Source of the DNA: an uncultured virus (IMG/VR IMGVR_UViG_3300011871_000032)
Taxonomy: Duplodnaviria; Heunggongvirae; Uroviricota; Caudoviricetes
Virus record (IMG/VR): IMGVR_UViG_3300011871_000032
Strand: one strand, 5' to 3'
DNA length: 64,000 bases
The translations under genes were made by a program, and so were the position numbers. The notes beneath the pieces were generated by a model. The model was not told the origin of the DNA and ran no database searches. It saw only the letters and a list, made by a program, of their open reading frames with translations. Every line of letters begins with the position of its first letter. The first letter of the stretch is position 1. Shown in pieces: positions 1 through 28,436 of this stretch.

Positions 1-364
1 AACCGCTCGTCCATTTTACAGGGATACGAAGTTTTTCATTAGCTTGCTTTGCCTTTTCCCTTACAGCTTTCTCTCTTTGTCTTCTTTTATTTTCTTCTTT
101 CAAACGATATTCTTTAAGATCAGCTTCTCGTTCAGCTTTTTCTTTCTCAATTTCTTCTTCTGTTTTTCCTACTAAATGATAACTTGCCGGAATGATAACA
201 ACTTTTGTCCCAATAGCAGGAAGTTCTCCTTCAAGAAGATTTAATGTGTCAATAGAGGTTTTTACTGTATTTTCAGATATTACCTCTCCTTCTACAGCAT
301 CTCCTCTTACCTTAGCAGAAAACCAAAAAGGATTTGGGAAAGCAGGCCATTTTAGAAGAAACAT
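1..364 (-). CDS. Hypothetical protein, truncated by window edge (MFLLKWPAFPNPFWF...)
   Basis: Manual translation: GAGGTG RBS, ATG at 364, open to position 1; not in ORF track. Confidence 0.7.
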   Translation of the reverse strand, partial: MFLLKWPAFPNPFWFSAKVRGDAVEGEVISENTVKTSIDTLNLLEGELPAIGTKVVIIPASYHLVGKTEEEIEKEKAEREADLKEYRLKEENKRRQREKAVREKAKQANEKLRIPVKWTSG

Positions 365-416
365 AATCTCACCTCACGCCATTATTATGACAATATAATA
401 TCATAACTGAATATGA

Positions 417-440
417 AAAACCACCCGAAGGTGGCTTTTT
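417..440. terminator. Rho-independent terminator with cUUCGg loop
   Basis: AAAACCACCCGAAGGTGGCTTTTT hairpin just downstream of 448..855. Confidence 0.75.
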
Positions 441-447
441 ATTTAAC

Positions 448-855
448 TTATTCTTCTTCCTCTCTCGGATTATCAATAGCATCTTTAGCGCCATCAGGAA
501 CATTATTCTCCATCAATTGGAACTCTTCAAGTGGAGGAACTACAAAAGAGCTGCTACCTTCTGCTTCATCTACGTTAGCAATGAAATACATTCCACCGAA
601 TGAACCAAAAGCATAACCACCCTTATCAAGTTCAAAAATATCAATATCACCGATATCATCATGACTACGTTTCACATGAGATAGAAGCTCGTGAGCTTCT
701 TTAGAAATCGCAACACAACCTACATCAGCAATAACATAACCAAGAGAGCCTGTATCAAATGGTGTCGTTACAATGTCATTACTTTCTTTTGTTTTATATT
801 CTACTACGATGTGATTTTTATAAGCAGTTACTTCGGCATAGATAGGTTTAGTCAT
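448..855 (-). CDS. Hypothetical acidic protein
   Basis: 135 aa ORF, GGAG RBS, followed by terminator. Confidence 0.75.
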   Translation of the reverse strand: MTKPIYAEVTAYKNHIVVEYKTKESNDIVTTPFDTGSLGYVIADVGCVAISKEAHELLSHVKRSHDDIGDIDIFELDKGGYAFGSFGGMYFIANVDEAEGSSSFVVPPLEEFQLMENNVPDGAKDAIDNPREEEE

Positions 856-1103
856 GTTATCTCCAGTTATTTAATTTAGAACGATATTGTAACAATAAGC
901 TTAGTCATTATCAATAAAAAACTTACTTTATTATTTTATATCCAAAGTATTCACTGCAATAAAAAATATTAATTTTAAAATATTTTACAATCAAATTGAC
1001 CGCTCATAACTTTTTACATGAAGTTTTACACTGATCTATTGATTTAATTCAGTATATTTATTAGGTTGTTTTTATCATATTGGATTTATGTAAGGAAATA
1101 GAA

Positions 1104-1685
1104 ATGAAAGCTTTTAAAATAAATAAAAAAGGATTTAGTTTATTAGAATTACTTTTAGTTTTATCAATAATTGCAAGTCTTATTGTAGCAGCTTTTTTGA
1201 TTTACAAGAAAGTAGATACAAGTAATAAAATTGAAAAAGAAAGAAATAATATATCATTGATAGTATCAGCAACAAAAAGTCTTTTTGCCGGAAAAGTAGA
1301 TTATGAAGGATGGTCTTTAAAAACTTTAGATAATGCCAACCTACTTGCTGATAACTTTATTTATAATAAAGCGACTAATGATGATTTTGGTCAATATAGA
1401 GATGCTTGGGGAAATGAGGTTAATACAGGAACAATAACACCGGGCAATGGTTCTGTTAAAATAGCTGGAGTTTCTTTAGAATATGTTATTCCATCAGAGG
1501 CATGTGTGAAATTTGTATCTTCTGTATTTCCATTAATGGATCGTATAGATGTTAACTATTCTAATATAAAAGATACAACAGTATCTTATATTGACGCTAC
1601 CAAAATAGATGTTTCAGCAATTTCTACATCTTGTGGAAACTCTTCTTATGGCGATTTAAGCACTGTTTCATTAACTTTTTATTAA
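1104..1685 (+). CDS. Type IV (IVb, PilS-like) prepilin
   Basis: Class III signal KKG|FSLLELLLVL, hydrophobic helix, C-terminal Cys pair (EAC...TSC); AAGGA RBS before ATG 1104. Confidence 0.85.
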   Translation: MKAFKINKKGFSLLELLLVLSIIASLIVAAFLIYKKVDTSNKIEKERNNISLIVSATKSLFAGKVDYEGWSLKTLDNANLLADNFIYNKATNDDFGQYRDAWGNEVNTGTITPGNGSVKIAGVSLEYVIPSEACVKFVSSVFPLMDRIDVNYSNIKDTTVSYIDATKIDVSAISTSCGNSSYGDLSTVSLTFY

Positions 1686-1826
1686 TACATTAATAATATA
1701 ATATTATCATGTTTTATTGACTGCAATAAAAAAGAGCACCCGTAGGCACTCTTCTTATTTTTGAAATACTTAGTTTGCCCACCTCTCAGCTAAACACCTT
1801 ACGCAAACCTTCCACAGAAGTATTTC

Positions 1827-2039
1827 TTAACTACTTGTTATATCATACTCTTCTTCTTCATGAATCAGTTCCCCTTGGTAACGAACCTCAAGAGTTGCTG
1901 TTAAGGTTCTATCAGTAAAAGAACCATACCCATGAGAAAAACTTTCTTCTAAAACTAATCTTATATCAATATCACTTAAAACACTTTCCACATCTACATC
2001 TTCTGAAAGAAATGGTTGAACAATATCTAATAAACGCAT
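1827..2039 (-). CDS. Hypothetical protein
   Basis: ORF; AGGAG RBS before MRLL. Confidence 0.6.
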   Translation of the reverse strand: MRLLDIVQPFLSEDVDVESVLSDIDIRLVLEESFSHGYGSFTDRTLTATLEVRYQGELIHEEEEYDITSS

Positions 2040-2121
2040 TTTATATCTCCTGTTGAATTGAATTTTAATGGGATTCACTCATACAAGAAAATATATTATT
2101 AACGCTTCCTTTTGTTATTTA

Positions 2122-2361
2122 TTAGAAATCTAACTCTTTACTTTCATTTTCACGCATAAAATTGTAAATTTGTTGTTCTGACATTAAATCAACTTCATTT
2201 TGAGATAAATTGGATTCATAGAAATAAACTTGAAACCCGATCATTCCCATTTTTTCTTCTGAATAATCTTCGAAATCTTTTGCTGCTTGTAACGTAGTAG
2301 GAATCACTTTAACAAACTGAATACCAGAGCTTTGATCACTCATTTCACAAATTGCTATCAT
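2122..2361 (-). CDS. Hypothetical protein
   Basis: 79 aa ORF with RBS. Confidence 0.6.
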   Translation of the reverse strand: MIAICEMSDQSSGIQFVKVIPTTLQAAKDFEDYSEEKMGMIGFQVYFYESNLSQNEVDLMSEQQIYNFMRENESKELDF

Positions 2362-2398
2362 TATAAATCCCCACCTTTATAATCAATAATATTTTAAT

Positions 2399-2469
2399 TT
2401 GTATGATAGGATTTGAACCTACACCTCCCTAGTCTTAACAGGGGCGCAATACCGTTATGCTACACTACA
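2399..2469 (-). pseudogene. Degenerate tRNA-like element (possible AAG loop)
   Basis: T arm GTAGG-TTCAAAT-CCTAT, D arm, bulged acceptor, loop TTAAGAC, no CCA. Confidence 0.5.
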
Positions 2470-2477
2470 AATTAGAA

Positions 2478-2565
2478 TGGTGTCTCAAGAGGGACTTGAA
2501 CCCTCACGCCCATTACAGGCACTGGCATCTTAAACCAGCGTGTCTACCAATTCCACCATCAAGAC
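2478..2565 (-). tRNA. tRNA-Leu(AAG)
   Basis: Full cloverleaf with long variable arm; anticodon arm CTGGT-TTAAGAT-GCCAG; A73 and encoded CCA. Confidence 0.85.
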
Positions 2566-2570
2566 ATAAA

Positions 2571-2748
2571 GGCAATTTTCGGTTATTCTTCTTCGCTTCT
2601 CAACGAAATAGAATAACCTAGCTGCGTGGAAAGTGTGAACACTATAACATCAATGTCAGGAACTTTCTATGTGTTTCGCCAAAACACATCCAAGAATAGC
2701 GCCGCAGACTTCCAGACTTACCTGCAGATAAGAACTGGCATTCTCTAG
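2571..2748 (-). ncRNA. Candidate structured ncRNA inside tRNA cluster
   Basis: No ORF; several stems (GGTTATTCT/AGAATAACC, ATGTGTTT/AAACACAT, CTGCG/CGCAG, GAAAGT/ACTTTC). Confidence 0.45.
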
Positions 2749-2749
2749 T

Positions 2750-2821
2750 TGTTCAGTACTGGATTCGAACCAGTCTCATTGGAGTTCTCTCCGCTCGATA
2801 TACCACTAATCGCACCTGAAC
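2750..2821 (-). ncRNA. tRNA-like RNA with collapsed anticodon loop
   Basis: Acceptor GTTCAG/CTGAAC, D stem CGAT/ATCG, T arm ACTGG-TTCGAAT-CCAGT; anticodon arm GGAG-AGAA-CTCC. Confidence 0.6.
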
Positions 2822-2830
2822 ATTATTGTT

Positions 2831-2895
2831 AGCCTGTTAGTTCCCGCTCATCTGGAACTCTTCCCCTTTCGGTTGAGAGCACTATTTAACAGGCT
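2831..2895 (-). ncRNA. 65-nt branched RNA abutting a CCA end
   Basis: Closing stem AGCCTGTTA/TAACAGGCT, CC-GAAA-GG and AGTTCC/GGAACT hairpins. Confidence 0.45.
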
Positions 2896-2971
2896 TGGTG
2901 GAGGTTATCGGAATCGAACCGATCAAGGTGCTTGAGTTACAAACAGAGCTGCTTAGCCAAGACTGACCCCC
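2896..2971 (-). ncRNA. tRNA-like RNA with alanine identity (G3:U70, A73, CCA) and no canonical anticodon arm
   Basis: GGGGGTC...ATCGG-TTCGATT-CCGAT-AACCTCC-A-CCA. Confidence 0.6.
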
Positions 2972-3010
2972 ATTAAAACAGCTTTTATACTGTATTATCG
3001 CTAATACAAC

Positions 3011-3226
3011 TTAAAGGCTGTTAGATCTACAAATTACTTGCATTACATCTGAACTACTTTCTTTCAATACATATGTTGGATTACCTTCATACTTAATACA
3101 ACGTTCTGTATACGATTTTAACTCTTGATTTGTTAATGGTTGCTGCTTAGGCAACAACATAAAACTGAAAATAAATAATGATAATAAGGACAAAAATATT
3201 ACATTATTAGATTTTAATGTTCTCAT
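3011..3226 (-). CDS. Small membrane-anchored hypothetical protein
   Basis: N-terminal TM, Cys pair, GAGGTG RBS. Confidence 0.65.
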   Translation of the reverse strand: MRTLKSNNVIFLSLLSLFIFSFMLLPKQQPLTNQELKSYTERCIKYEGNPTYVLKESSSDVMQVICRSNSL

Positions 3227-3242
3227 TTTATCACCTCGTTAG

Positions 3243-3361
3243 TGGCCTTTGCTGGATTCGAACCAGCGCAAAGTAACCCAATACTTAAAAGTTAACGCTT
3301 TAAAATAAGGGTTTTAACGCACTACCCGCTGGTAGCTGCTCTCCCGCTGAGCTAAAAGACC
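3243..3361 (-). ncRNA. 119-nt tRNA-like RNA with non-canonical anticodon loop and ~50-nt extra arm
   Basis: Acceptor GGTCTTT/AAAGGCC, D stem GCTC/GAGC, GCTACC-AGCG-GGTAGT, long AACCC/GGGTT hairpin, T arm GCTGG-TTCGAAT-CCAGC. Confidence 0.7.
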
Positions 3362-3367
3362 GAAATT

Positions 3368-3556
3368 TGGAGCCGCATTAGGGAATCGAACCCTATCAGT
3401 CAAAAGTAACCACCCGATTACTGCTTAAAAATCTAAGCTTAAGTAGATGCCTCTACCGACCTATTTGCAAACCAATCCATACTCACGAGATACTTATGTA
3501 CAATTTTCACCCGCTTTCTTTCGCAAAATGATTTGGAGTCGAACCAAACCACGGCT
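3368..3556 (-). ncRNA. 189-nt CCA-ended double-T-loop RNA, family A copy 1
   Basis: AGCCGTG/TGCGGCT-CCA closing stem, two TTCGA hairpins; paralog at 5447..5635. Confidence 0.75.
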
Positions 3557-3632
3557 TGGTGCATTCGGAGGGATTTGAACCCCCGACACCCGGATCTTCA
3601 ATCCAGTGCTCTACCAACTGAGCTACAAATGC
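3557..3632 (-). tRNA. tRNA-Phe(GAA)
   Basis: 76-nt cloverleaf, loop TT-GAA-GA, CCA. Confidence 0.9.
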
Positions 3633-3737
3633 ATTTCATGAAAAACATAATAACAACTTTTTGATTAAAGTACAACTGTTTTTTCGTATTTTTTATCATA
3701 TGCTAAGGATTTTTTACATCTGCCTTAGCAATGATAG

Positions 3738-4265
3738 TTAAATAGCTGATAAAGATAATTTTTGCTTAAGATATTCTTCACATAGTTTAATTGTAAAGTC
3801 TTTAGGCATTTGTCTTTTCCAATAATCAAGATTACGTAATGTTTCTTGAGCTGCTTTTTCTATTGCCCAAATATTTATATTTGAAGCACAGATTAATACT
3901 TTATTAAAACAACGCTGATCATGATAAATATTTAAATAGGGAATAGAGTGTTCTTTTGGCAATTCTCCCCATGTAAATATTTTTACAAACATCGGAACAT
4001 TTGTCTTAAAAAGACGCTCAAGAAAAGACAGTAATTTAGTATCGCTTAAATTACGGACACTTTTATAATTTTCATCCGTTTCAAGCTCAATAGTTATTAA
4101 TGATCGATCTATATCAATTTTAATTGGCCTGAAAGAAATCTTTGTATCCCATACTTCTTGATATTCCTGAGTTTCTAAGGCTTTTTGAATACCTTCTTTT
4201 AAAGATGAGCACATTTCATCTACTCTAAGATATTTCTTTTTCATAATATTAATAATATTCTCCAT
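3738..4265 (-). CDS. Hypothetical protein
   Basis: 175 aa ORF. Confidence 0.65.
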   Translation of the reverse strand: MENIINIMKKKYLRVDEMCSSLKEGIQKALETQEYQEVWDTKISFRPIKIDIDRSLITIELETDENYKSVRNLSDTKLLSFLERLFKTNVPMFVKIFTWGELPKEHSIPYLNIYHDQRCFNKVLICASNINIWAIEKAAQETLRNLDYWKRQMPKDFTIKLCEEYLKQKLSLSAI

Positions 4266-4268
4266 TAT

Positions 4269-4403
4269 TTTACACGACAGGACTTGAACCTGCAGCCTAC
4301 TTTACGGATAATCAGCAGTATACGGCCTTTCTCCAACCAGATGTTTTTTACGGGGCGTTTCCCCATCATAGTCTGGTGACGTTCTACATTGAACTACGCA
4401 TAA
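4269..4403 (-). ncRNA. 135-nt tRNA scaffold with a large structured insertion replacing the anticodon/variable region
   Basis: Acceptor TTATGCG/CGTGTAA, D stem GTTC/GAAC, ACCAGA/TCTGGT enclosing GGGG-AAACG-CCCC, T arm GCAGG-TTCAAGT-CCTGT. Confidence 0.7.
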
Positions 4404-4487
4404 TGGTGCATAGTGAAGGATTTGAACCCCCGGCGCGATTCCACGGCTTTGCCCACGAATCCGCTCTACCAACTGAGCTAACTATGC
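4404..4487 (-). ncRNA. tRNA-like RNA with extended anticodon arm (15-nt loop)
   Basis: Perfect acceptor GCATAGT/ACTATGC-A-CCA, canonical D and T arms; GATTC-GTGGGCAAAGCCGTG-GAATC. Confidence 0.75.
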
Positions 4488-4541
4488 AATGAAAGTATTA
4501 TACTTATTTTCAGTTTTAAGTACAATACTTTTTACTATTTT

Positions 4542-5057
4542 TTAAGCTTTTATTTTAATTTTACTGCTTATCTCATCTACTTCACCCACGAGTTCGAAAA
4601 GTAGATTATTGATACCTTCTTTTCTTTTTAGCTTTCTTACTATTGCTGGCACTAATTGTTCTTTTAAGGCTAACTTATAACTTTCATTTTGAGATTTTAA
4701 AATTTTCTCTATATTATGGTATAAATTATGCGAATTTAAAATACGTCTAATGTTTTCTCTCATTCTTTCTTCTATAACAATATCAATAGTTTCCTCAACT
4801 ATTTTTTTCGCTAACTCTTCTTTTTCTTGCATTGATAGGCTTAGTATCCTATTAATTACTAAATCTACAAGAATATCATAGAGGTCATCTATCTTTATTT
4901 TAGCATTAAATGGCCTATATTGCTCAAAACAGTTTTCCTCTAATAAATCTTTTTCAGTAAAATATTTATCTACATCATCTTTATTAACAAAAAAATCGCA
5001 AGCATTCTCATGCAACATTTCTTTTAATTCGTTAAAAATTCTTTCTGAGCTTTTCAT
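4542..5057 (-). CDS. Hypothetical protein
   Basis: 171 aa ORF, GAGG RBS. Confidence 0.7.
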   Translation of the reverse strand: MKSSERIFNELKEMLHENACDFFVNKDDVDKYFTEKDLLEENCFEQYRPFNAKIKIDDLYDILVDLVINRILSLSMQEKEELAKKIVEETIDIVIEERMRENIRRILNSHNLYHNIEKILKSQNESYKLALKEQLVPAIVRKLKRKEGINNLLFELVGEVDEISSKIKIKA

Positions 5058-5109
5058 TTTTTACCTCATTTCAATGTAAAAATCCCAGCCCGAAGACTGA
5101 GATTTTATA

Positions 5110-5292
5110 TTATAAATCACCATAGTTTGAGATAACTAACCCTTGTTTAACTTCATAGATTTCCATTTCTGTATCAGGACTATAGTTATATTGAGTTTTC
5201 ATCAACTCCCTTGCGGAAGCTTCATCTTTCTCAATAACTACAATATTACCAGCCCAACCAAAATCAACAACAAACACTTTTAAATCATTCAT
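5110..5292 (-). CDS. Small hypothetical protein
   Basis: 60 aa, AGGAG RBS, terminator after. Confidence 0.7.
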   Translation of the reverse strand: MNDLKVFVVDFGWAGNIVVIEKDEASARELMKTQYNYSPDTEMEIYEVKQGLVISNYGDL

Positions 5293-5365
5293 AAAAATCT
5301 CCTATGTTAAGTTAATTTTTTAGCATAGAAAGATTATGAATTTTTATCATTACAATGTTTTATTT

Positions 5366-5441
5366 TGGTGGCCCTTGTTGGATTTGAACCAACGACCAAT
5401 CGATTATGAGTCGACTGCTCTAACCACTGAGCTAAAGGGCC
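5366..5441 (-). tRNA. tRNA-Ile2(CAU, lysidine type)
   Basis: GGCCCTTTAGCTCAGTGGTTAGAGCAG..CTCATAA..; closely resembles enterobacterial ileX/ileY. Confidence 0.9.
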
Positions 5442-5446
5442 AAAAT

Positions 5447-5635
5447 TGGAACCACAAGGCAAACTACACCCTTTCAGTCAAACATAATCACCAGATTATG
5501 AGGATATATCAAACTTCCATATATCCTTTGGTAGATGCCTCTACCAGACCTATCTATTTGATCCACGAGGTACTTATGTACACTTTTCTCTCACTTCTCT
5601 TTATAGATCATTCGGAATCGAACCGAACAGTGGTT
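5447..5635 (-). ncRNA. 189-nt CCA-ended RNA, family A copy 2
   Basis: AACCAC/GTGGTT-CCA; shares TGTACATAAGTA, GGTAGAGGCATCTAC and TTTGACTGA with copy 1, with compensatory changes. Confidence 0.75.
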
Positions 5636-5639
5636 GTTG

Positions 5640-5726
5640 TGGTACCTGAGACGAGACTCGAACTCGTACAACCGTAAGGTCGAGGGATTTTAAGTCCCTT
5701 GTGTCTACCTATTCCACCACTCAGGC
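5640..5726 (-). tRNA. tRNA-Leu(UAA)
   Basis: Cloverleaf, loop CT-TAA-AA, long variable arm, CCA. Confidence 0.92.
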
Positions 5727-5824
5727 ATAAAGAGCATTCTCATGCTCTCATCTACGTTCACTTTTAATCAAACTTAAAGGTACTTCAATGAAAACCCCAA
5801 TTCATCAAACAATAAGGAGATTTC

Positions 5825-5900
5825 TGGTGCGCCATGCTGGATTCGAACCAGCGACCAATAGCTTAGAAGGCTACTGCTCTATCCACTGAGCTAACAGCGC
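5825..5900 (-). tRNA. tRNA-Arg(UCU)
   Basis: Cloverleaf, loop CT-TCT-AA, CCA. Confidence 0.92.
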
Positions 5901-5910
5901 ATTACTGTCT

Positions 5911-5956
5911 TCGTTTCGATGAAGTAATAATAGCAAAGAGCAGAATGAAGTACAAC
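5911..5956 (-). promoter_or_regulatory. Sigma70-like promoter of tRNA module
   Basis: TTGTAC-17-TATTAT then CATCGAAACG; similar at ~7941-7985 and ~8981-9025. Confidence 0.6.
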
Positions 5957-6066
5957 TTTTTTTTACTTTTTCTCTACTGTTTGCAGATTTTTTAAGCTAT
6001 TTAGCGAATTTTACATCTATTTTTACGAAACAAATAAAAAAGCCTCTTAGAGAGGCTTTTATTTGA

Positions 6067-6495
6067 TCAGATAGATGGTCTTTTGGGTTTTGGAGCATCT
6101 TCATTTGAACGATCTTTAAATTCAAGATACTGACCTAAATAACTGTAGATTTTTTCTTTCGCAATAGGATTTTGAGAATGAACGAAAAAGTTAAAATCCT
6201 TTGGCAAGAAAGATGGATCATCCATATCTTTTTCCACCAACCATTTTGCCAAATCTACACCTTCAAGCTCTCTCATTAAATCATTATCAAAAGAAATGAA
6301 GTTAGGGCAACCATTACGTTCAATGTAATCAATAGCTCCTTCAACAGTGGTATTTACAACGAGTTCACTGTTATATACTTTTTCCAACAGATCATCAGCC
6401 CCAATCAAAGGGTAGTAATAACGTGGATGCCTGATTTTATCAGGATGGAAAGCATCATCATCCAAAAACATAAATACACTTTTCTTTTCAGTCAT
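6067..6495 (-). CDS. Cyclic-phosphate processing receiver-domain protein
   Basis: Motifs FLDD, ISFDNDL, G-x-DLAKWLVE, VHSQNP typical of this receiver-like family. Confidence 0.75.
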   Translation of the reverse strand: MTEKKSVFMFLDDDAFHPDKIRHPRYYYPLIGADDLLEKVYNSELVVNTTVEGAIDYIERNGCPNFISFDNDLMRELEGVDLAKWLVEKDMDDPSFLPKDFNFFVHSQNPIAKEKIYSYLGQYLEFKDRSNEDAPKPKRPSI

Positions 6496-6565
6496 TTTCT
6501 TATTTCCATATCTTAAAGGTGATATTATATTACTATATTCTAATATTAAGATCAACCATTTAATG

Positions 6566-7084
6566 CTACATAAAACATTCTTCGCTTGAACTTCTTATCA
6601 ATAAATCTAAAATCTTTTTCTTTGTAAGTTCTGGAGAATGATGTCCAAAGATATGCGTTTCTCTTAAAACATCTAAAAAATCTTCTACAAAATCATCTTT
6701 TTCAAATCGTAGTTTTTTTATGAAATTATTTTTTAGCATTATATTTTTTTCATAATAAGTTTTATGGTTTATACCATTACCATCATAAATAATATCATTA
6801 TGAATAATCGCTATATGATCTATTCTTATAATGTCATTAAGAATAACCGAGTTTAGAGCTTCTTTTGATTTCTTGTCGATTATTTTGTTAATTTGAATTT
6901 TATCCCATTCTTCTTCATAAAAAATAAAAAGAGCAAATTCTACAAAACCATTATTCTTCATAAAGAAAGGTGTGAGATAATTAGCAAGGTGAGAACAACC
7001 ACCATTTAAAAAATAGTGCTTTGCATTCGCATCTTTTTTTATAGCATTAACGATTTTTTCAATCTCAAAGATGAATTCTTTCAT
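6566..7084 (-). CDS. Hypothetical protein, possible Cys-His-Asp papain/transglutaminase-like fold
   Basis: FLNGGC..A, HI, YDG motifs; similar to 34304..35038. Confidence 0.55.
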   Translation of the reverse strand: MKEFIFEIEKIVNAIKKDANAKHYFLNGGCSHLANYLTPFFMKNNGFVEFALFIFYEEEWDKIQINKIIDKKSKEALNSVILNDIIRIDHIAIIHNDIIYDGNGINHKTYYEKNIMLKNNFIKKLRFEKDDFVEDFLDVLRETHIFGHHSPELTKKKILDLLIRSSSEECFM

Positions 7085-7183
7085 TTTAGTCTCACTATAG
7101 ATAGAAGGTTTTTATTTTAACTATATAAATCGTTTTTAGAATAACAAAAAAGGACATGGCATGTCCTTTTTTAATTGTTTTAT

Positions 7184-7256
7184 AAAAATCTATCAAGAAT
7201 CGAACCTGATAACTTCATCTTATGAGGGCGCTGTTTTACCAATAAACTAAGATTTT
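7184..7256 (-). pseudogene. Degenerate tRNA(CAU)
   Basis: T arm and D arm, loop CT-CAT-AA, mispaired anticodon stem, AU-rich acceptor, no CCA. Confidence 0.5.
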
Positions 7257-7350
7257 TATAAAACTTATTAATAAATCATAAAACAATCTTCTATTGATTA
7301 CAATATTTTTATCTATTTTTTCCATAATTTATTAGAACAAAAGTAATCTT

Positions 7351-7426
7351 TGGTGGCCCCTGTTGGATTTGAACCAACGACCAATCGATTATGAGTCGAC
7401 TGCTCTAACCACTGAGCTAAGGGGCC
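7351..7426 (-). tRNA. tRNA-Ile2(CAU)
   Basis: ileX-like cloverleaf, CCA. Confidence 0.9.
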
Positions 7427-7429
7427 GAA

Positions 7430-7602
7430 TTTAGAGAATGTTGCAGCATTCTCCATTAGTCTCTTGCTAACGTCAATCTGTTTCGCTCGCTATACAGATA
7501 AATAGCACACAGGAGGACTTAAGCTTATCAATTATTTCAAATTAAACAAAATGAACATATTACTACTTCATTTAAAAATGTTTAATCCCGATTGATCACG
7601 GT
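7430..7602 (-). ncRNA. Structured ncRNA, family B copy 1
   Basis: Paralog of 8576..8749 with compensatory stem changes and invariant loop CATATTACTAC (plus strand). Confidence 0.65.
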
Positions 7603-7655
7603 GCCTACATTAATCAAACGTTAAAACAACCACAACACTACCACCACGTAGAGTT

Positions 7656-7742
7656 TGGTACCTGAAGTGGGATTCGAACCCACAAGCCCGTTACGGGCGG
7701 GAGATTTTAAGTCTCCTGTGTATACCATTCCACCATTCAGGC
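7656..7742 (-). tRNA. tRNA-Leu(UAA)
   Basis: Cloverleaf, loop CT-TAA-AA, CCA. Confidence 0.92.
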
Positions 7743-7833
7743 ATAAAAGAGTGGGAGAACACTCTTTAATTAAATGAAAACTTTTAGCAGTACTTTTATT
7801 CACAATCACAACAACACATAGAGGAGACTATGC

Positions 7834-7909
7834 TGGTGCGCCGTGCAGGATTCGAACCTGCGACCAATAGCTTAGAAGGCTACTGCTCTATCCACTGAGC
7901 TAACAGCGC
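7834..7909 (-). tRNA. tRNA-Arg(UCU)
   Basis: Cloverleaf, loop CT-TCT-AA, CCA. Confidence 0.92.
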
Positions 7910-8027
7910 ATTTATCATTTTAATCAATTACTTAGTGCTTCGTTTCAATGTGTTTATAATACCTAAAACCTTTATGAAGTACAACTCTTTTTTCAATATT
8001 TTGTTTATTTATTTTTTCTGTTTTTAC

Positions 8028-8312
8028 TTAATCTAAACGAATTGATGGATTAAGGAAAGGCGGATTACAGACGCTTCCTGATACTTCTTTATTTCCCGGA
8101 TCACGAGCTGTAAAGCTTGTTACTCTTTCGTGTTTAGCACATTTAAAGATATTTCCAGATGAAACTTTAACTTGTGTATAACCTTTATCTTCTAGAAAAG
8201 ATTTAGCTGTATCTTGCCCTGAAAAACAGTGGAAATAAATCGAGCCACTGAATATTGCAGCACCAATTATAAACAGCGGAATGTTTCCTGATTTTGTTTT
8301 ACGTTGAGCCAT
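8028..8312 (-). CDS. Membrane-anchored hypothetical protein
   Basis: N-terminal TM, C..FTA..G.VC pattern of a common small phage family. Confidence 0.7.
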   Translation of the reverse strand: MAQRKTKSGNIPLFIIGAAIFSGSIYFHCFSGQDTAKSFLEDKGYTQVKVSSGNIFKCAKHERVTSFTARDPGNKEVSGSVCNPPFLNPSIRLD

Positions 8313-8341
8313 TTCAAACCCCTTTTTACATTTATTTATTT

Positions 8342-8428
8342 TGGTGCCTCAGACCAGACTCGAACTGGTACAACCTAACGGTCGAGAGATTTTAAGTCTC
8401 TTGTGTCTACCTATTTCACCACTGAGGC
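8342..8428 (-). tRNA. tRNA-Leu(UAA)
   Basis: Cloverleaf, loop CT-TAA-AA, CCA. Confidence 0.92.
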
Positions 8429-8496
8429 ATTTAAGAACATTGCGAGTGTTCTTAAACTACAACCCGTAAAACTAAGCGCAGAGGATCGAAGTCTGC

Positions 8497-8572
8497 TGGT
8501 GGCCCCTGTTGGATTTGAACCAACGACCAATCGATTATGAGTCGACTGCTCTAACCACTGAGCTAAGGGGCC
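8497..8572 (-). tRNA. tRNA-Ile2(CAU)
   Basis: Matches 7351..7426. Confidence 0.9.
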
Positions 8573-8575
8573 GGA

Positions 8576-8749
8576 TTTAGAGAATGCGCCAACATTCTCT
8601 ATTAGTCTCTTCCTAATGTCACCCTGTCTCGCTCACTATACAGGTCAATAGCACAAAGGAGGTACATCGAGCTTATTAATTATTTCAAATTAGATATAAT
8701 GAACATATTACTACTTCATTAATGCTACCTAATCCCGATTAATCACGGT
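8576..8749 (-). ncRNA. Structured ncRNA, family B copy 2
   Basis: Paralog of 7430..7602. Confidence 0.65.
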
Positions 8750-8823
8750 TATGAACAAATGTCTACACAATAAACCACGAACAGCACTACACACAACAAA
8801 CTACACAAAACAAGCGTAGGGGT

Positions 8824-8900
8824 TGGCACGTTGTATAGGATTCGAACCTATGACCTACGGCTTAGAAGGCCGTTGCTCTATCCAACTGAGCTAACAACGC
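8824..8900 (-). tRNA. tRNA-Arg(UCU)
   Basis: argU-like cloverleaf, loop CT-TCT-AA, G73, CCA. Confidence 0.92.
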
Positions 8901-9122
8901 ATTATGTTATTACTATACCATTTTACTTCATTCAGTACAAATCTTTTTTATCTAACTTTTTGATACTTAAGAATATATCTCGTTTCGATGAAGTTATAAT
9001 AGCAAATCAGATCATTGAGTACAAGTCTTTTTTTAATGTTTTTAATCAATAGATTGTTTTTTGATCATATTGCGTATTTTACTATCTTTTAGCTACAAAA
9101 AAGCCGCTTTTCGCGGCTTTTC

Positions 9123-9632
9123 TTATACTTTCCAAAGTAAAAACTCAATGTTATTTTTATTGCCAGAACATTCTTCATGAAGTTGTTCAAAAGTGTTAAT
9201 TTTTATAGATTGTATATCTCGGTTATTTAATATGGTTTTAATTCCCTTTTTAGAACTTGTACTTCTATCCCTATAAAAAGACTCACACTCTGCTTGGGGC
9301 AGATTATTTATTTTTATACTTAATACATCGTTTTTTTCAGATATAGAATAATCAAATTTTGTTTTTTCATGATTAAATGAGTTTATATCTTTTTTATTGA
9401 TAACTTTTTTAAATTCTTCTGTTTTAGTAACGGGATATAATCCAGTATCAATTAATGATTTTATATAGAATATCTTTTGTTTTTCAGTCTGTACTGAAAC
9501 GCTATTCCATTCATACTTTAATTTTTTGTATATGATATCACCTCTTGTAATACCCATAACAGCAATGAGTAAAATAAATGCAGAAATTATAACTACTGGA
9601 AAATAATTTCTTTCATTTTTATTACTATTCAT
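9123..9632 (-). CDS. Pilin-like membrane protein lacking prepilin cleavage motif
   Basis: N-terminal TM; NNLPQAEC...ECSGNKNNIEF resembles type IVb pilin C-terminus. Confidence 0.55.
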   Translation of the reverse strand: MNSNKNERNYFPVVIISAFILLIAVMGITRGDIIYKKLKYEWNSVSVQTEKQKIFYIKSLIDTGLYPVTKTEEFKKVINKKDINSFNHEKTKFDYSISEKNDVLSIKINNLPQAECESFYRDRSTSSKKGIKTILNNRDIQSIKINTFEQLHEECSGNKNNIEFLLWKV

Positions 9633-9699
9633 TTTTTCACCTTTTGATTTGTCATACATATGACTTTATTTTATTTATAAAAAAAACCTCTTCCGAGGT

Positions 9700-10257
9700 T
9701 TAGTTTTTTATAAGCTCTTCAAATAACAGTTTATTATTCTCTTTAAATGAATAAAGATATTTTTTTGTTTCTAATGAAACGACATCTGGAACATCCATAT
9801 TTCCATAAAACATTTCTCTAATTTTAGTACTACTAATAACATCAATACCTTCAAAGTTAACTTCTTCGATAAAATCAGATTTCCACTCAGGGAATAGCTT
9901 TAGATAAAATGTGCTTTCATCACCTGTTTTTTGACATCCTGTAATAAAAACTTGATCGTCTTTATTTGAAATTGAAGAAACAAGTTTTTTAACTTCATCT
10001 ACCCAATCTTGATCTTTTTCAAAATCAGGCAGAGCAAGAATAGATACTTTTTTATTTCCTTTATATTTATTCGTAATATTTTGAACCATTTCTTTTCGTT
10101 CTTCAAAAGAAAAAGGATTTTTACGACTACGAGGTGTATTAGAACTACCAATCAAAATAAGAACTTCATCACCTTCATTAATGGCATGTTTCATTACACT
10201 TTCATGACCAAAGTGAGGAATTTGAAAACGACCAATGTAAACATAAACCTTACTCAT
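9700..10257 (-). CDS. Nicotinamide-mononucleotide adenylyltransferase (NadM-like)
   Basis: YIGRFQIPHFGH, IGSS..KNPFSFEER, ISSTKIR. Confidence 0.85.
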   Translation of the reverse strand: MSKVYVYIGRFQIPHFGHESVMKHAINEGDEVLILIGSSNTPRSRKNPFSFEERKEMVQNITNKYKGNKKVSILALPDFEKDQDWVDEVKKLVSSISNKDDQVFITGCQKTGDESTFYLKLFPEWKSDFIEEVNFEGIDVISSTKIREMFYGNMDVPDVVSLETKKYLYSFKENNKLLFEELIKN

Positions 10258-10348
10258 TGTTAATTCCTTTAATTTTTGTATCGTTCATTATACCTTATCT
10301 TTACATTAAAAGGTATTTTTATTAACCACTATTTCTAGTGGTTTTTCT

Positions 10349-11431
10349 TTATACTTTTGAAGCGATGGTTAATTTTTCAATCGTTTCATCAAGTGTTGCT
10401 TTACCAGATGTATAATCATTAAAAACAAGCCCTGCCATAATATGATTTACATTTTTACGTGCTCCATCAACATGGACACGAGAATCTTCAAGGAATAAAT
10501 TAATATTATTTTCATCCAGCATTGAAAGAGCCAAATGCTTTGGGCGACCATCAGCAAAATCAGCACGACTTACCTGAATACCATAATGAGTAAGCGTCTT
10601 TACAATACGAAAAGTCGCAGCACCACCCCGTGCAGTTAAAATACGAGTTTCAAAAGGAATATCTTTTGCCTTAATTTCATTAGCCAACATTTTCTTTTGA
10701 TAGTAAGCTACAATCAGACTTGATTTCTGTAAAAAACAGCCAAGAGGACCAAGCTCCATAGGCTTATTACGATTAGCAATTTCATTTAGGCGAAAAGCTT
10801 CAAGAGGTACCATACCATCTACTTTTTTCGCAGCCTGATAAACCATTTCTGACGTGTGATCTACTACTACACCATCAAAATCAAAAATAAAATTGATAGT
10901 GTTATTTCTATTTTGGAACATTTTCATGTTCTGCAGTTCACTGATGTTAGGGATCTCAGTAGAGGCCATACCATTATTATGATAGATTTTTGCGGAACTA
11001 TCAGAAGAAGTAAATACAATGTCAGCACCCTGCATTTTATGTGGGGATGCTTGCTCAAGACCACCTGTTAATGAAATATAATCAGGCATAAAATCTTCAT
11101 TATCATTAAAAAGATAGTGATCTAAGCTGTTAAAAAGAGTCACAGCCCCTTCATGCGCTGTATCGAAACGACTTGAAAGACCAAAACGCAACTGAATGAT
11201 ATTTGTAGGAATTTGTTTACGCAGACGATGTAAAGAAATATAAAGACCAAGAGCTGGACCCGGCTTAAACACCTGACCTTCTTTATTCATTTTTTCAAAA
11301 TACTTACGATATAGACCTTCACGATCTTCTTCGGTATTTTGCTCAAAGATGGCTTCAGCTTCTTTCATGTCAAACAGTGTTCCTGCGGTGAAACCCAATG
11401 TCAGAACAGTGTCTTTTTCGCTAATGTTCAT
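10349..11431 (-). CDS. 5'-nucleotidase (cN-I type, HAD)
   Basis: LFDM, PGPA, FDFDGV..SE, GPL, LTARG, FLEDS..HV motifs. Confidence 0.8.
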   Translation of the reverse strand: MNISEKDTVLTLGFTAGTLFDMKEAEAIFEQNTEEDREGLYRKYFEKMNKEGQVFKPGPALGLYISLHRLRKQIPTNIIQLRFGLSSRFDTAHEGAVTLFNSLDHYLFNDNEDFMPDYISLTGGLEQASPHKMQGADIVFTSSDSSAKIYHNNGMASTEIPNISELQNMKMFQNRNNTINFIFDFDGVVVDHTSEMVYQAAKKVDGMVPLEAFRLNEIANRNKPMELGPLGCFLQKSSLIVAYYQKKMLANEIKAKDIPFETRILTARGGAATFRIVKTLTHYGIQVSRADFADGRPKHLALSMLDENNINLFLEDSRVHVDGARKNVNHIMAGLVFNDYTSGKATLDETIEKLTIASKV

Positions 11432-11566
11432 TTTATAACCCTTATGTTGTCAATATTAGGATTATTGCATACCTTGATCTCCAATGCAAGCTTTTTAAAT
11501 AGCCTTTTCAACATTTTGACTTATTTTTTATTTGTGATTTACTTGGTTTAACAAAGGAGAATTTAA

Positions 11567-15851: not shown

Positions 15852-15867
15852 TTTTATGCCTCTTATT

Positions 15868-16752: not shown

Positions 16753-16825
16753 TTTTTATTCCTTATAGAGTTTCTTAACACGTATGATATCAAAAAACTC
16801 TATAGAATACAATATTTGATTGCTT

Positions 16826-27992: not shown

Positions 27993-28436
27993 TCAATTAA
28001 TTATGGCATACTCTATTAGATTGATATCATCTTTTATTATTTCAGTATCTATGAACCTTTCCAGCATTATTTTTTCCTTGTAGCATTCTTCCTCTATTGT
28101 TTTAATCGCTGTATTTATATCAACTGAAAAAAACTCTTTACTAATTCTGTATTTTTTCAGTTTTTTATGTATTTTGCTTTCAACAATAAACTGATTAAAA
28201 ACGGGGAGCGAAAATAAAACTTCATAAGATGAAAGGACTCCTGTAGAGGATAAACTTTTTGCCCTCTCCATTGGATGTTTTGCTGTTCTTCCTATCTTTA
28301 AATAAACATTATCATCTGTTTTAACAATGTATATCCATCCCATTTTCTTTTTAAAATATTTCTTTAAATCCTCTGCCTCTCTCAAGGCAGATATTTTATA
28401 TTTAAAATCGTCATCAAATAATTTATCGTAATTCAT
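27993..28436 (-). CDS. T5orf172/GIY-YIG family protein
   Basis: GWIYI..LKIGRT..ERA..L..TGV..E..IH..L..KEFF. Confidence 0.85.
   Translation of the reverse strand: MNYDKLFDDDFKYKISALREAEDLKKYFKKKMGWIYIVKTDDNVYLKIGRTAKHPMERAKSLSSTGVLSSYEVLFSLPVFNQFIVESKIHKKLKKYRISKEFFSVDINTAIKTIEEECYKEKIMLERFIDTEIIKDDINLIEYAIIN

What the first reader, a model, noticed from the sequence alone, without database searches (positions are those of the whole stretch)
3368..5635. Family A: two 189-nt CCA-ended RNAs with a T-loop at the D-arm position and covarying stems
Seen: 3368-3556 and 5447-5635 are both 189 nt and start 0-4 nt after a tRNA CCA. Each closes with an acceptor-like stem plus CCA (AGCCGTG/TGCGGCT; AACCAC/GTGGTT) and has a T-loop hairpin right after the 5' strand (TTTGG-TTCGACT-CCAAA vs TTCGG-TTCGATT-CCGAA). 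Copy 1 has a second T-loop before the 3' strand. Invariant blocks are TGTACATAAGTA, CTCGTG, GTAGA-GGCA-TCTAC (GNRA hairpin) and TTTGACTGA. Compensatory pairs are TTTGC/GCAAA vs TCTAT/ATAGA and AGTAATC/GGTTACT vs CATAATC/GATTATG. Known analogues only by context: T4 species I/II stable RNAs, YrlA Y RNAs, GOLLD/ROOL. I recognise none of them in this sequence. Inference: a conserved, possibly undescribed structured RNA class.
Basis: partly seen in the sequence, partly recalled or inferred. Interest (0 to 1): 0.88.

Follow-up and report, generated by a model that had tools for sequence, protein, structure and literature searches.

The report
tRNA-framed structured RNAs in phage
Two related 189-base genes in the tRNA cluster of a very large AT-rich phage-like element encode folded RNAs that start and end like a tRNA but carry a large conserved insert; they are a new example of the "tRNA-like stable RNAs" long known in phages T4 and T5, whose job is still unknown.

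Summary
Window 3368-3556 and 5447-5635 (minus strand) are two 189-nt paralogs. Each starts 0 or 4 nt after a tRNA CCA and ends in its own CCA. A covariance model built from copy 1 alone aligns copy 2 end to end (103 bits). Across six distinct sequences, 99.1% of cells in 55 pairs are standard pairs, and 12 pairs change on both sides. The fold has an acceptor-like stem plus CCA, a true T arm directly after the 5' strand, and two conserved inner domains. The pairing works only on the tRNA strand (10 and 4 G-U pairs). Repeated promoter-like sites lie upstream of tRNA-Phe→copy 1 and of Arg→Leu→copy 2→Met.

No Rfam family matches, even at E≤10. No relative turned up outside one phage lineage: the window, a 341-kb IMG/VR record and two metagenome contigs. 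The models do not match T4 rnaC/rnaD or T5 RNA1/RNA2, but the design and context are the same.

Best reading: stable RNAs on a tRNA-minihelix chassis, matured by the tRNA-processing enzymes, with an unknown effector domain. Transcription and RNA ends are not shown.

The parts
3368..3556 (-). Family A copy 1 (c1), 189-nt RNA gene
   Evidence: R1/R2 score 239/186.7 bits. The minimum-energy fold equals the consensus fold.
5447..5635 (-). Family A copy 2 (c2), 189-nt RNA gene
   Evidence: A model built from c1 alone aligns it over 1-189 at 103.1 bits.
3550..3556 (-). c1 acceptor-like stem, 5' strand (RNA 1-7). It pairs with 3371-3377 (RNA 180-186). The encoded CCA is at 3368-3370.
   Evidence: Helix 1 has 2 pairs changed on both sides between the copies.
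3531..3549 (-). c1 P1: a T arm placed directly after the 5' acceptor strand (6-bp stem, loop UUCGACU, closing G-C)
   Evidence: Read from the sequence. Pair probabilities 0.94-0.96. Helix 2 is 100% paired with 1 double change.
3464..3527 (-). c1 P2 domain. P2 is RNA 30-34/89-93 and P2b is 43-47/68-72. An 8-nt purine-rich bulge holds GAAAA. The P2a hairpin GUAC-AUAA-GUAU lies at 3490-3501. The blocks UGUACAUAAGUA and CUCGUG lie here.
   Evidence: P2 has 3 of 5 pairs changed on both sides; P2b changes only on one side.
3398..3461 (-). c1 inner three-hairpin domain, closed by P6 (GGUC/GACU; RNA 96-99/156-159). P3 is at 3442-3457 (loop GGCA), variable P4 at 3423-3438, and P5 at 3405-3422 (loop GGGU).
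   Evidence: P4 has 3 double changes and P5 has 2. P6 never varies, so it has no covariation support.
3379..3395 (-). c1 second T arm (UAGGG-UUCGAUU-CCCUA), 1 nt before the 3' acceptor strand
   Evidence: pair probabilities 0.81-0.96.
5610..5628 (-). c2 P1 T arm (loop UUCGAUU)
5553..5607 (-). c2 P2 domain (P2 is RNA 29-33/79-83, P2b 42-46/67-71, P2a 55-58/63-66)
   Evidence: Alignment. In c2 alone these helices have low thermodynamic probability (0.03-0.13), and the minimum-energy fold uses GAUCUAU/AUAGGUC instead. The PPYF variant U43C turns U-G into C-G in P2b.
5476..5550 (-). c2 inner domain: P6 is RNA 86-89/157-160, P3 is at 5530-5545, P4 at 5502-5526, P5 at 5483-5500 (loop UGGU)
   Evidence: G001 and one RNA-library contig carry the double change G111A+C133U in P4.
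5447..5473 (-). c2 3' end: a degenerate hairpin (RNA 163-180, 10-nt loop, no T-loop consensus), then the 3' acceptor strand 5450-5455 and CCA 5447-5449
   Evidence: pair probabilities 0.05-0.06. G165C in G001 breaks one pair.
3647..3675 (-). Promoter-like site TTGTAC-N17-TATTAT upstream of tRNA-Phe, then c1, then the 119-nt tRNA-like gene
   Evidence: 16 matches in the window against 2.29 expected; 6 of them lie in the tRNA array, all on the minus strand.
5927..5955 (-). Promoter-like site upstream of tRNA-Arg, tRNA-Leu, c2 and tRNA-Met
3557..3632 (-). tRNA-Phe(GAA). Its CCA abuts c1 position 1.
5640..5726 (-). tRNA-Leu(UAA), 4 nt upstream of c2
5366..5441 (-). tRNA-Met(CAU), 5 nt downstream of c2's CCA

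Best explanation
Family A RNAs are stable non-coding RNAs built on a tRNA chassis.

Biogenesis (inferred). They are transcribed from phage sigma-70-like promoters as part of polycistronic tRNA transcripts. RNase P then cuts at position 1; for c1 that same cut would also free the CCA end of tRNA-Phe. The 3' end is trimmed back to the encoded CCA, as for the neighbouring tRNAs.

Chassis (inferred). The acceptor-like stem stacks on the T arm that follows its 5' strand, giving about 13 bp. This is a tRNA minihelix carrying a roughly 150-nt insert. The chassis supplies processing signals and resistance to exonucleases.

Effector (inferred). The working part is the conserved insert, which has two domains:
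- the P2 domain, with the UGUACAUAAGUA hairpin and purine-rich bulges;
- a three-hairpin domain closed by GGUC/GACU, whose GG-bearing tetraloops could dock on a T-loop the way a D-loop does.

It most likely acts in trans as a tRNA mimic or protein-binding scaffold, within this element's investment in tRNA supply and RNA repair.

Shown: the paralogy, the strand, the covarying helices, the tRNA-like ends and the operon-like context. Not shown: transcription, processing, the stacking, and everything about the partner.
For: - Paralogy and fold. A model built from c1 alone aligns c2 over its full length at 103.1 bits, in the proposed structure.
- Pair counts. With 4 sequences: 55 pairs, 99.1% of 217 cells paired, 13 pairs changed on both sides. 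With 6 distinct sequences: 99.1% of 324 cells, 12 pairs changed on both sides. In both counts 0 of 500 shuffles reach the covariation score, and sliding the partners drops pairing to 35-42%.
- Strain variants. 5 events at paired positions keep pairing (G8A, G147A, C105U, G111A+C133U, U43C), 2 break a pair, and 10 fall in loops or linkers.
- Strand. c1 folds at -49.9 kcal/mol on the minus strand against -31.3 on the plus strand; c2 at -55.0 against -43.6. The structures hold 10 and 4 G-U pairs.
- Composition. GC is 0.42 and 0.39 in a window of 0.305.
- tRNA-like ends and 0-6 nt spacers to the flanking tRNA genes.
- Promoter-like motif upstream of both operons, 16 found against 2.29 expected.
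- Precedent for the design. Two neighbours, 3243-3361 and 4269-4403, keep tRNA acceptor, D and T arms but replace the anticodon arm by 60 and 77 nt. T5 RNA1 and RNA2 are annotated 'tRNA-like stable RNA', and RNA2 folds with an acceptor stem, a T arm and an inner UUCGAUU hairpin. T4 rnaC folds with a closing stem plus T arm.
Against: - No direct evidence of a transcript or of its ends. The four RNA-library runs are contigs that cover genes and spacers alike, and DNA carry-over is not excluded.
- c1's folding energy is not better than that of shuffled sequence (z = -1.13).
- In c2 taken alone, P2, P2b, P6 and the 3' hairpin have pair probabilities of 0.03-0.13. The consensus fold is 3.8 kcal/mol above the minimum-energy fold.
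- P6 never varies and P3 changes only G-C to G-U, so neither has covariation support.
- All covariation comes from one old duplication plus a few strain variants, and the alignments were fitted to the structure.
- The family was found in one lineage only and is absent from the 388-kb relative G002, so a dispensable or recently arisen element is possible.
- There is no discriminator base if A1-U186 pairs, and c2 lacks the 3' T-loop, so recognition by tRNA enzymes is not assured.
- No partner has been identified.
Confidence: 0.55

Rival explanations
1. Family A is a Y-RNA-like partner of the element's own Ro60 (TROVE) protein. The tRNA-like module would play the role it plays in bacterial YrlA, with GGUC/UUGACU (P6) as the Ro-binding helix. 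The resulting particle would recruit host PNPase or RNA-repair enzymes.
For: - The near-identical relative G001 encodes a 559-aa TROVE protein (Pfam 26.8 bits against a cut-off of 23; PHROG 850 at 133 bits). It matches the solved Thermus phage phiLo Ro60, PDB 9kop/9l5y, at E = 6e-17.
- That phage Ro60 binds phage-encoded Y-like RNAs and host PNPase (PMC12135203, passages read).
- No YrlA match lies in the 20-kb stretch of G001 that holds this gene, so its RNA partner is unassigned.
- Bacterial Y RNAs mimic tRNA, can be made in one precursor with a tRNA, and one is cut by RNase P and gains CCA (PMC4201824).
- Vertebrate Ro60 contacts GGUCCGA (same paper), and Family A has an invariant GGUC paired to the GACU of UUUGACUGA.
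- G002 lacks both the TROVE gene and Family A.
- The array also carries a cREC_REC gene, and G001 carries an Rnl1-like ligase.
Against: - Rfam's YrlA and Y_RNA models give nothing on either copy at E<=10.
- The bacterial motif GNCGAAN0-1G is absent from c2 and only loosely present in c1.
- GGUC/GACU is only 4 bp, closes a junction rather than a bulged 5'/3' stem, and never varies.
- Family A lies about 150 kb from the TROVE gene in G001, whereas known YrlA genes lie within 4 kb on the same strand.
- Five other TROVE-bearing viral contigs hold no Family A; the one 14.8-bit hit lies inside ORFs.
- Co-occurrence rests on two genomes.
Confidence: 0.12
2. Family A is a decoy or sponge. It would act on host factors that recognise the acceptor/T-arm half of tRNA, such as tRNA-directed defence toxins acting on the CCA end or acceptor stem, or processing and modification enzymes. 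This would protect the phage's tRNA supply.
For: - It presents one or two consensus T arms and a CCA-ended acceptor stem, but no anticodon arm.
- It sits in an array dominated by repeated tRNA(CAU), tRNA-Leu(UAA) and tRNA-Arg(UCU) units, beside a predicted cyclic-phosphate-processing gene. G001 adds an Rnl1-type RNA ligase.
- Together these read as a tRNA supply-and-repair programme, as discussed for jumbo phages in PMC7824862 (passages).
Against: - The idea is purely contextual, and no target is known.
- The most conserved parts are the inner domains, which a simple acceptor/T-arm decoy would not need.
- Only two copies exist, and expression level is unknown.
Confidence: 0.15
3. The elements are decaying tRNA-derived filler. 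They would be duplicated relics kept only as processing spacers between tRNAs, with no function in trans.
For: - Narrow distribution.
- The c2 3' T arm has degenerated.
- In sister array units the same slot between tRNA-Leu and tRNA-Met holds an unrelated 229-nt element.
- c1's energy z-score is unremarkable.
Against: - Two copies that differ at about a third of positions still keep 99% of 55 pairs, 12-13 of them by double changes.
- They also keep long invariant unpaired blocks: GAAAA, UGUACAUAAGUA and UUUGACUGA. Relics would lose both.
- Strain variants avoid breaking stems.
Confidence: 0.12
4. They are real tRNA genes interrupted by an intron or insert, or they act at the DNA or protein level.
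For: - The ends look like tRNA.
- A 113-codon ORF on the plus strand (5336-5677) overlaps c2.
Against: - Removing the insert leaves no D arm and no anticodon arm. ARAGORN and the Rfam tRNA model do not call either copy.
- No group I or II intron model matches.
- The plus-strand ORF also overlaps tRNA-Met and is frameshifted, with stops, in G001.
- The G-U pairs make the fold strand-specific.
Confidence: 0.03

Closest known systems
Phage T5 RNA1 (144 nt) and RNA2 (125 nt), annotated 'tRNA-like stable RNA with unknown functions'. T5 also has RNA3, RNAI, RNAIII, RNAIV, RNA2H and RNAX in the same tRNA region.
   Same: - They lie between tRNA genes, small ORFs and repeated promoters.
- RNA2 folds with an acceptor-like stem, a 3' T arm and an inner hairpin with a UUCGAUU loop, so it also has two T-loops.
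- Function is unknown.
   Different: - There is no detectable homology. With filters off, R2 hits only T5 tRNA genes (at most 16.8 bits) and neither RNA1 nor RNA2 at E<=0.1.
- The T5 RNAs keep a D-arm position, whereas Family A puts a T arm there.
- Family A has a five-way junction, is longer, and encodes its CCA.
Phage T4 rnaC / rnaD (species 1 and 2 stable RNAs)
   Same: - They are encoded at the end of the tRNA cluster, directly after tRNA-Arg.
- rnaC folds with a closing stem and a consensus T arm next to the 3' strand.
- Their roles are still unknown (passages in PMC3014915 and PMC9697503).
   Different: - No model match: at most 13.6 bits over the whole region, at the level of tRNA noise.
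- No encoded CCA and no 5' T arm.
- 139 and 119 nt long, with different inner helices.
Bacterial and phage Y RNAs of the YrlA type (Rfam RF02553)
   Same: - They are non-tRNA RNAs with a tRNA-like module that includes a consensus T arm.
- One member is cut by RNase P and gains CCA, and another is co-transcribed with a tRNA (PMC4201824).
- A Ro60-like gene exists in the relative G001.
   Different: - No RF02553 match and no conserved GNCGAAN0-1G motif.
- Not next to the Ro60 gene.
- The ends form an acceptor stem with CCA rather than a Ro-binding stem.
Canonical tRNA and the acceptor/T-arm minihelix
   Same: - A 6-7 bp acceptor stem and a 3' CCA.
- A T arm with UUCGA and a closing G-C.
- Placement in a tRNA operon.
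   Different: - No D arm and no anticodon arm.
- About 150 nt inserted between the T arm and the 3' acceptor strand.
- The stack is about 13 bp rather than 12 bp.
- No unpaired discriminator base if A1-U186 forms.
Engineered 'tRNA scaffold' for expressing recombinant RNAs in E. coli (recalled from memory; no call)
   Same: A functional RNA is inserted in a tRNA frame so that the cell processes and stabilises it like a tRNA. This is what Family A and its two neighbours look like.
   Different: The engineered version is man-made and places its insert in the anticodon stem. Family A keeps only the minihelix half.

Membership tests
tRNA (RF00005) | Cloverleaf with D arm and anticodon arm, recognised by the tRNA model or ARAGORN | tested here: not met
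   ARAGORN tRNAs and neither copy. RF00005 has no match on either copy at gathering score or at E<=10.
tRNA (RF00005) | Acceptor stem with 3' CCA, and a T arm with U54 U55 C56 R57 A58 and the G53-C61 pair | tested here: met
   Read from the sequence. P1 in both copies and the 3' T arm of c1 meet it. The 3' hairpin of c2 does not.
YrlA / Y RNA | Match to Rfam YrlA (RF02553) or Y_RNA | tested here: not met
   No hit on either copy at E<=10. The only YrlA row (18.2 bits, E = 5.2) lies at 7781-7889.
YrlA / Y RNA | GNCGAAN0-1G motif near the 5' end (PMC4201824) | tested here: not met
   c2 has no CGAA. c1 has GCGAAAG inside P2, not in register with the motif (sequence; motif).
YrlA / Y RNA | Encoded within about 4 kb of the Ro60 gene on the same strand | tested here: not met
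   In G001 the TROVE gene is at 28,035-29,711 and Family A at 181,131-183,398. The strand is the same but the distance is about 150 kb.
YrlA / Y RNA | Binds Ro60 | not testable with these tools
   No RNA-protein test is available here.
Phage tRNA-cluster stable RNAs (T4 rnaC/rnaD, T5 RNA1/RNA2) | Encoded among phage tRNA genes, on the tRNA strand, abutting tRNAs | tested here: met
Phage tRNA-cluster stable RNAs (T4 rnaC/rnaD, T5 RNA1/RNA2) | Sequence or structure homology to the T4 or T5 RNAs | tested here: not met
   R2 with filters off over the T4 and T5 tRNA regions gives only noise-level or tRNA hits.
Phage tRNA-cluster stable RNAs (T4 rnaC/rnaD, T5 RNA1/RNA2) | Accumulates as a stable processed RNA in infected cells | not testable with these tools
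   Only contigs of RNA libraries were available.
tmRNA | tRNA-like domain plus tag reading frame, found by ARAGORN or the Rfam tmRNA models | tested here: not met
   ARAGORN finds no tmRNA. The only tmRNA row is 10.7 bits at 2831-2923.
GOLLD / ROOL and other large phage RNAs, self-cleaving ribozymes | Match to the Rfam model | tested here: not met
   None listed for the region at E<=10.

The most novel reading that the evidence does not exclude
Family A is a trans-acting effector RNA that a giant phage delivers on a tRNA-minihelix chassis. The chassis hijacks RNase P and CCA maturation. The conserved inner domains then bind a protein: the phage's own Ro60-like ring, or a host tRNA-directed defence or repair enzyme. 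This would make it a new class of tRNA-mimic ribonucleoprotein in phage counter-defence. It would also offer a handle on what the 50-year-old orphan T4 and T5 stable RNAs are for.
Probability: 0.2. Interest if true: 0.8.

Novelty: new variant of a known kind. Interest (0 to 1): 0.5.

Why it matters
Phage tRNA clusters have been known since the 1970s to encode extra stable RNAs, and none has a known function (passages in PMC3014915 and PMC9697503).

Family A adds a well-defined case with an unusually clear design:
- only the minihelix half of a tRNA is kept, with the T arm moved to follow the 5' strand;
- two invariant inner domains are mounted on it.

It sits in an RNA island that also holds two tRNA frames with replaced anticodon arms and other unexplained elements of 230-250 nt. 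The island belongs to an element that encodes a Ro60-like protein, an Rnl1-like ligase and a cyclic-phosphate-processing domain.

If the chassis idea is right, these RNAs are natural counterparts of the engineered tRNA scaffold. They would also be a tractable entry point to the function of tRNA-like phage RNAs. The weakness is the narrow distribution, which limits comparative proof.

Tried and rejected
**Homolog searches that found nothing beyond the lineage**
- Exact-pattern scans of viral contigs with two different block patterns found only G001.
- The metagenome-contig scan gave 9 loci. Three of them, from two contigs, hold true copies and 6 are chance.
- The genome-contig scan gave 1 chance locus.
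- blastn in 'distant' mode, each copy against 50,697 phage records, gave only matches of 19-34 nt at E>=0.6; the longer ones lie on the tRNA-like ends.
- R2 was run over Serratia phage BF, Xanthomonas phage XbC2 and E. coli phage 121Q, over G002 and over 5 TROVE-bearing viral contigs.
- The 14.8-bit hit in G006 has no T-loop and no CCA, has many broken pairs, and lies inside ORFs, so I rejected it. Ordinary tRNA-Leu genes score 12-14 bits with the same model.
- There is no third copy in window 1-12000 with filters off, nor in G001.

**Reads**
- Contigs of four RNA libraries were laid on 3200-5800. Cover is roughly even over genes and spacers, contig ends fall at repeated tRNA sequence, and nothing shows a start or an end. 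This is no evidence for or against transcription.

**Neighbouring ORFs**
- ORF175 (3738-4265) and ORF171 (4542-5057) have no Pfam or PHROG family, and the protein atlas gave no usable hit.
- Their homologs are unnamed.
Those contigs may carry diverged c2 copies.
- tblastn of one such relative against the phage collection found nothing, and a viral-contig scan with another found only G001.

**Other dead ends**
- 'Acinetobacter phage MD-2021a' records hit by the MutS gene look like bacterial chromosome and were dropped.
- Stop-codon recoding was checked because of two CUA-anticodon tRNAs in G001. Reading TAG or TGA as sense does not lengthen the longest ORFs.
- Terminase_6C was not found in G001, so the capsid and terminase lineage is unassigned.
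- Supplements of PMC10690425 were searched for the motifs and the contig name with no hit, but 3 of its files were not searched.
- Idea not pursued: the invariant loop region reads CAUAA, like the anticodon loop of the array's many tRNA(CAU). A 5-mer match in a 4-nt loop is not evidence.


Full report
**What is there**

All 15 tRNA genes that ARAGORN finds in the window lie on the minus strand, and 14 of them lie between 2397 and 8900. Read on that strand, 3368-3556 (c1) and 5447-5635 (c2) are two 189-nt elements.

- c1 starts at the base after the CCA of tRNA-Phe. c2 starts 4 nt after the CCA of tRNA-Leu(UAA).
- Both end in CCA. They are followed after 6 and 5 nt by a tRNA-like gene and by tRNA-Met.
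- Those blocks occur twice each, against 0.03 and 0.05 expected by chance.
- GC is 0.42 and 0.39 in a window of 0.305.

**Structure**

c1's minimum-energy fold is a five-way junction. In c1 RNA numbering the parts are:

| Part | Positions | Notes |
|---|---|---|
| Acceptor-like stem | 1-7 / 180-186 | followed by CCA |
| P1 | 8-13 / 21-26 | loop UUCGACU |
| P2 | 30-34 / 89-93 | encloses P2b and P2a |
| P2b | 43-47 / 68-72 | |
| P2a | 56-59 / 64-67 | hairpin, loop AUAA |
| P6 | 96-99 / 156-159 | GGUC/GACU; closes P3, P4 and P5 |
| P3 | within the P6 domain | loop GGCA |
| P4 | within the P6 domain | variable |
| P5 | within the P6 domain | loop GGGU |
| T arm | 162-166 / 174-178 | |

The same architecture can be drawn for c2 with no non-standard pair. 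A covariance model built only from c1 and its G001 allele aligns c2 over all 189 positions, in this structure, at 103.1 bits.

Pair counts on the model-fitted alignments:

| Alignment | Cells in standard pairs | Pairs changed on both sides | Shuffles reaching the covariation score |
|---|---|---|---|
| 4 sequences | 99.1% of 217 cells, 55 pairs | 13 | 0 of 500 |
| 6 distinct sequences | 99.1% of 324 cells | 12 | 0 of 500 |

Sliding the 3' partners by 1-3 columns drops pairing to 35-42% in both counts. Double changes support the acceptor stem (2), P1 (1), P2 (3), P4 (3), P5 (2) and the T arm (1).

Weak points:
- P6 never varies.
- P3 and P2b change on one side only.
- The alignments were fitted to the structure.
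- Nearly all the signal comes from one duplication.
- In c2 alone, P2, P2b, P6 and the 3' hairpin have probabilities of 0.03-0.13. The consensus fold is 3.8 kcal/mol above its minimum-energy fold, which pairs GAUCUAU with AUAGGUC instead.
- c1's energy is ordinary for its composition: z = -1.13, 26 of 200 shuffles as good. For c2, z = -3.40.

**Strain variation**

Variants come from G001, the contigs OKEV01000019.1 and PPYF01376352.1, and contigs of RNA libraries.

- At paired positions, five events keep pairing: G8A and G147A in c1; C105U, U43C and the double change G111A+C133U in c2.
- Two events break a pair: G165C in c2's degenerate 3' hairpin, and G119U at the end of c1's P4.
- Ten changes fall in loops or linkers.

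**Strand, and coding**

The proposed folds hold 10 (c1) and 4 (c2) G-U pairs. The plus strand folds much worse: -31.3 against -49.9 kcal/mol for c1, and -43.6 against -55.0 for c2. The 113-codon plus-strand ORF over c2 also covers tRNA-Met and is frameshifted in G001.

**Transcription context**

A motif TTGTAC-N17-TATWAT occurs 16 times in the window against 2.29 expected. Six of these are in the array, all on the minus strand. One lies upstream of tRNA-Phe, c1 and the 119-nt tRNA-like gene. Another lies upstream of tRNA-Arg, tRNA-Leu, c2 and tRNA-Met. Terminator-like sites lie elsewhere, at 6038-6060 and 7145-7173.

That the RNAs are co-transcribed with tRNAs and released by RNase P and 3' trimming is an inference from this layout. 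The four RNA-library runs that hold the region are contigs and show neither ends nor levels.

**What it is not**

- Rfam 15 gives only tRNAs at gathering score. Nothing overlaps either copy at E<=10, including YrlA, Y_RNA, tmRNA, GOLLD, ROOL and the ribozymes.
- ARAGORN calls neither copy.
- Without the insert there is no D arm and no anticodon arm, so these are not interrupted tRNA genes.

**Distribution**

- The nearest record, G001, is a 341,648-bp IMG/VR record labelled provirus, and it holds both copies.
- Pattern scans of viral, metagenome and genome collections added only two contigs of the same lineage.
- blastn against 50,697 phage records found nothing beyond short matches at E>=0.6.
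- The model found nothing credible in three Rak2-like jumbo phages, in a 388-kb relative (36% identity in a 704-aa protein), in five TROVE-bearing viral contigs, or in the T4 and T5 tRNA regions.
- Sequencing runs from 13 studies (wastewater, chicken gut, food, bioreactor, soil, plant) hold the stretch, so the element itself is widespread.
- More diverged relatives exist: ORF171 homologs at 72-86% identity. Their DNA could not be fetched.

**Comparison with known RNAs**

- T5's tRNA region carries eight annotated stable RNAs, two of them called 'tRNA-like stable RNA with unknown functions'.
- T5 RNA2 folds with an acceptor stem, a 3' T arm and an inner UUCGAUU hairpin.
- T4 rnaC folds with a closing stem and a consensus T arm. 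Its role was still unknown in 2010 and 2022.
- In the window itself, 3243-3361 and 4269-4403 keep acceptor, D and T arms but replace the anticodon arm by 60 and 77 nt.

Family A therefore belongs to this kind by context and design, but not by homology. It differs in three ways: it keeps only the minihelix half, its T arm follows the 5' acceptor strand directly (a stack of about 13 bp), and it has a five-way junction. P1 keeps the full T-arm consensus in both copies while c2's 3' T arm has decayed. That points to P1 as the essential arm.

**The Ro60 lead**

- G001 encodes a TROVE protein that matches the solved Thermus-phage Ro60. That Ro60 binds phage Y-like RNAs and host PNPase (PMC12135203).
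- G001 also encodes an Rnl1-like ligase, and the window's array holds a cREC_REC gene.
- No YrlA lies in the 20-kb stretch of G001 that holds the TROVE gene.
- Bacterial Y RNAs mimic tRNA, and one is cut by RNase P and gains CCA (PMC4201824).
- Against the lead: no model match, no conserved GNCGAA motif, a distance of about 150 kb, and a 4-bp invariant GGUC/GACU as the only resemblance. I keep it as a rival at about 0.12.

**Verdict**

This is a real, strand-specific, structurally constrained pair of tRNA-framed RNA genes. It is absent from Rfam and limited to one lineage as far as could be searched.

The best-supported mechanism is a tRNA-minihelix chassis that secures processing and stability for an unknown effector domain (confidence 0.55). 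Function is untested.

Noticed in passing
window 3243-3361 (-) and 4269-4403 (-): Two genes match the tRNA model in the acceptor, D and T arms (41.5 and 33.4 bits), but 60 and 77 nt replace the anticodon arm. ARAGORN misses both. The first ends in CTA rather than CCA. They look like natural tRNA-scaffold RNAs of the T5 RNA1/RNA2 type.
   Followed up: partly
window 7427-7655 (-) and 8573-8823 (-): Two related non-coding elements of 229 and 251 nt sit between tRNA genes. By eye they share the blocks CCGTGATYAATCGGGATTA, AATGAAGTAGTAATATGTTCATT and GAGACTAATRGAGAATG. The first occupies the same Leu-to-Met slot that c2 fills in the sister unit. There is no Rfam match and no R2 match.
   Followed up: no
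window 2575-2975 (-): More unannotated tRNA-like sequence. A tRNA-shaped gene at about 2897-2975 ends in CCA and is missed by ARAGORN. An isolated T arm lies at about 2758-2774, inside a GC-richer stretch with no long ORF.
   Followed up: no
window 2397-8900; G001 whole: The tRNA set is dominated by repeated units of tRNA(CAU), tRNA-Leu(UAA) and tRNA-Arg(UCU), the decoders of AUA or AUG, UUA and AGA. G001 has 34 tRNA calls, 24 of which carry one of these three anticodons, plus two with a CUA anticodon (amber-suppressor-like). Reading TAG as sense does not lengthen ORFs.
   Followed up: partly
window, 16 sites, e.g. 3647-3675, 4497-4525, 5927-5955, 7956-7984, 8996-9024 (-): A promoter-like motif TTGTAC-N17-TATWAT, often behind an A-tract, occurs 16 times against 2.29 expected, and 15 of the 16 are on the minus strand. 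The built-in sigma-70 scan misses it.
   Followed up: partly
window 6067-6555 (-); G001 28,035-29,711 and 52,819-53,955: RNA-repair-type genes are present. A cREC_REC (cyclic-phosphate-processing receiver) ORF lies inside the tRNA array. G001 has a Ro60/TROVE protein and a T4 Rnl1-like RNA ligase.
   Followed up: partly
G001 15,518-16,813 and 88,391-89,686 (L033, L037): Two 431-aa ORFs carry RRXRR plus HNH domains. From memory, this is the IscB-type RNA-guided nuclease family. Any guide RNA beside them was not examined.
   Followed up: no
window 28440-30932 (-): A full-length five-domain MutS is encoded by the element. Its best matches are bacterial, or phage records that look like bacterial DNA.
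   Followed up: partly
G001 whole; ORF 3738-4265 cluster: The element is odd for a jumbo phage. In G001 no open stretch between stops exceeds 840 codons, Terminase_6C was not found, and no capsid or terminase family appeared among the ORFs of at least 300 aa that I scanned. It does have type IV pilin-like and shufflon-like genes. The ORF175 protein cluster sits on a contig of 541,068 bp, so the full genome may be far larger than 341 kb.
   Followed up: no
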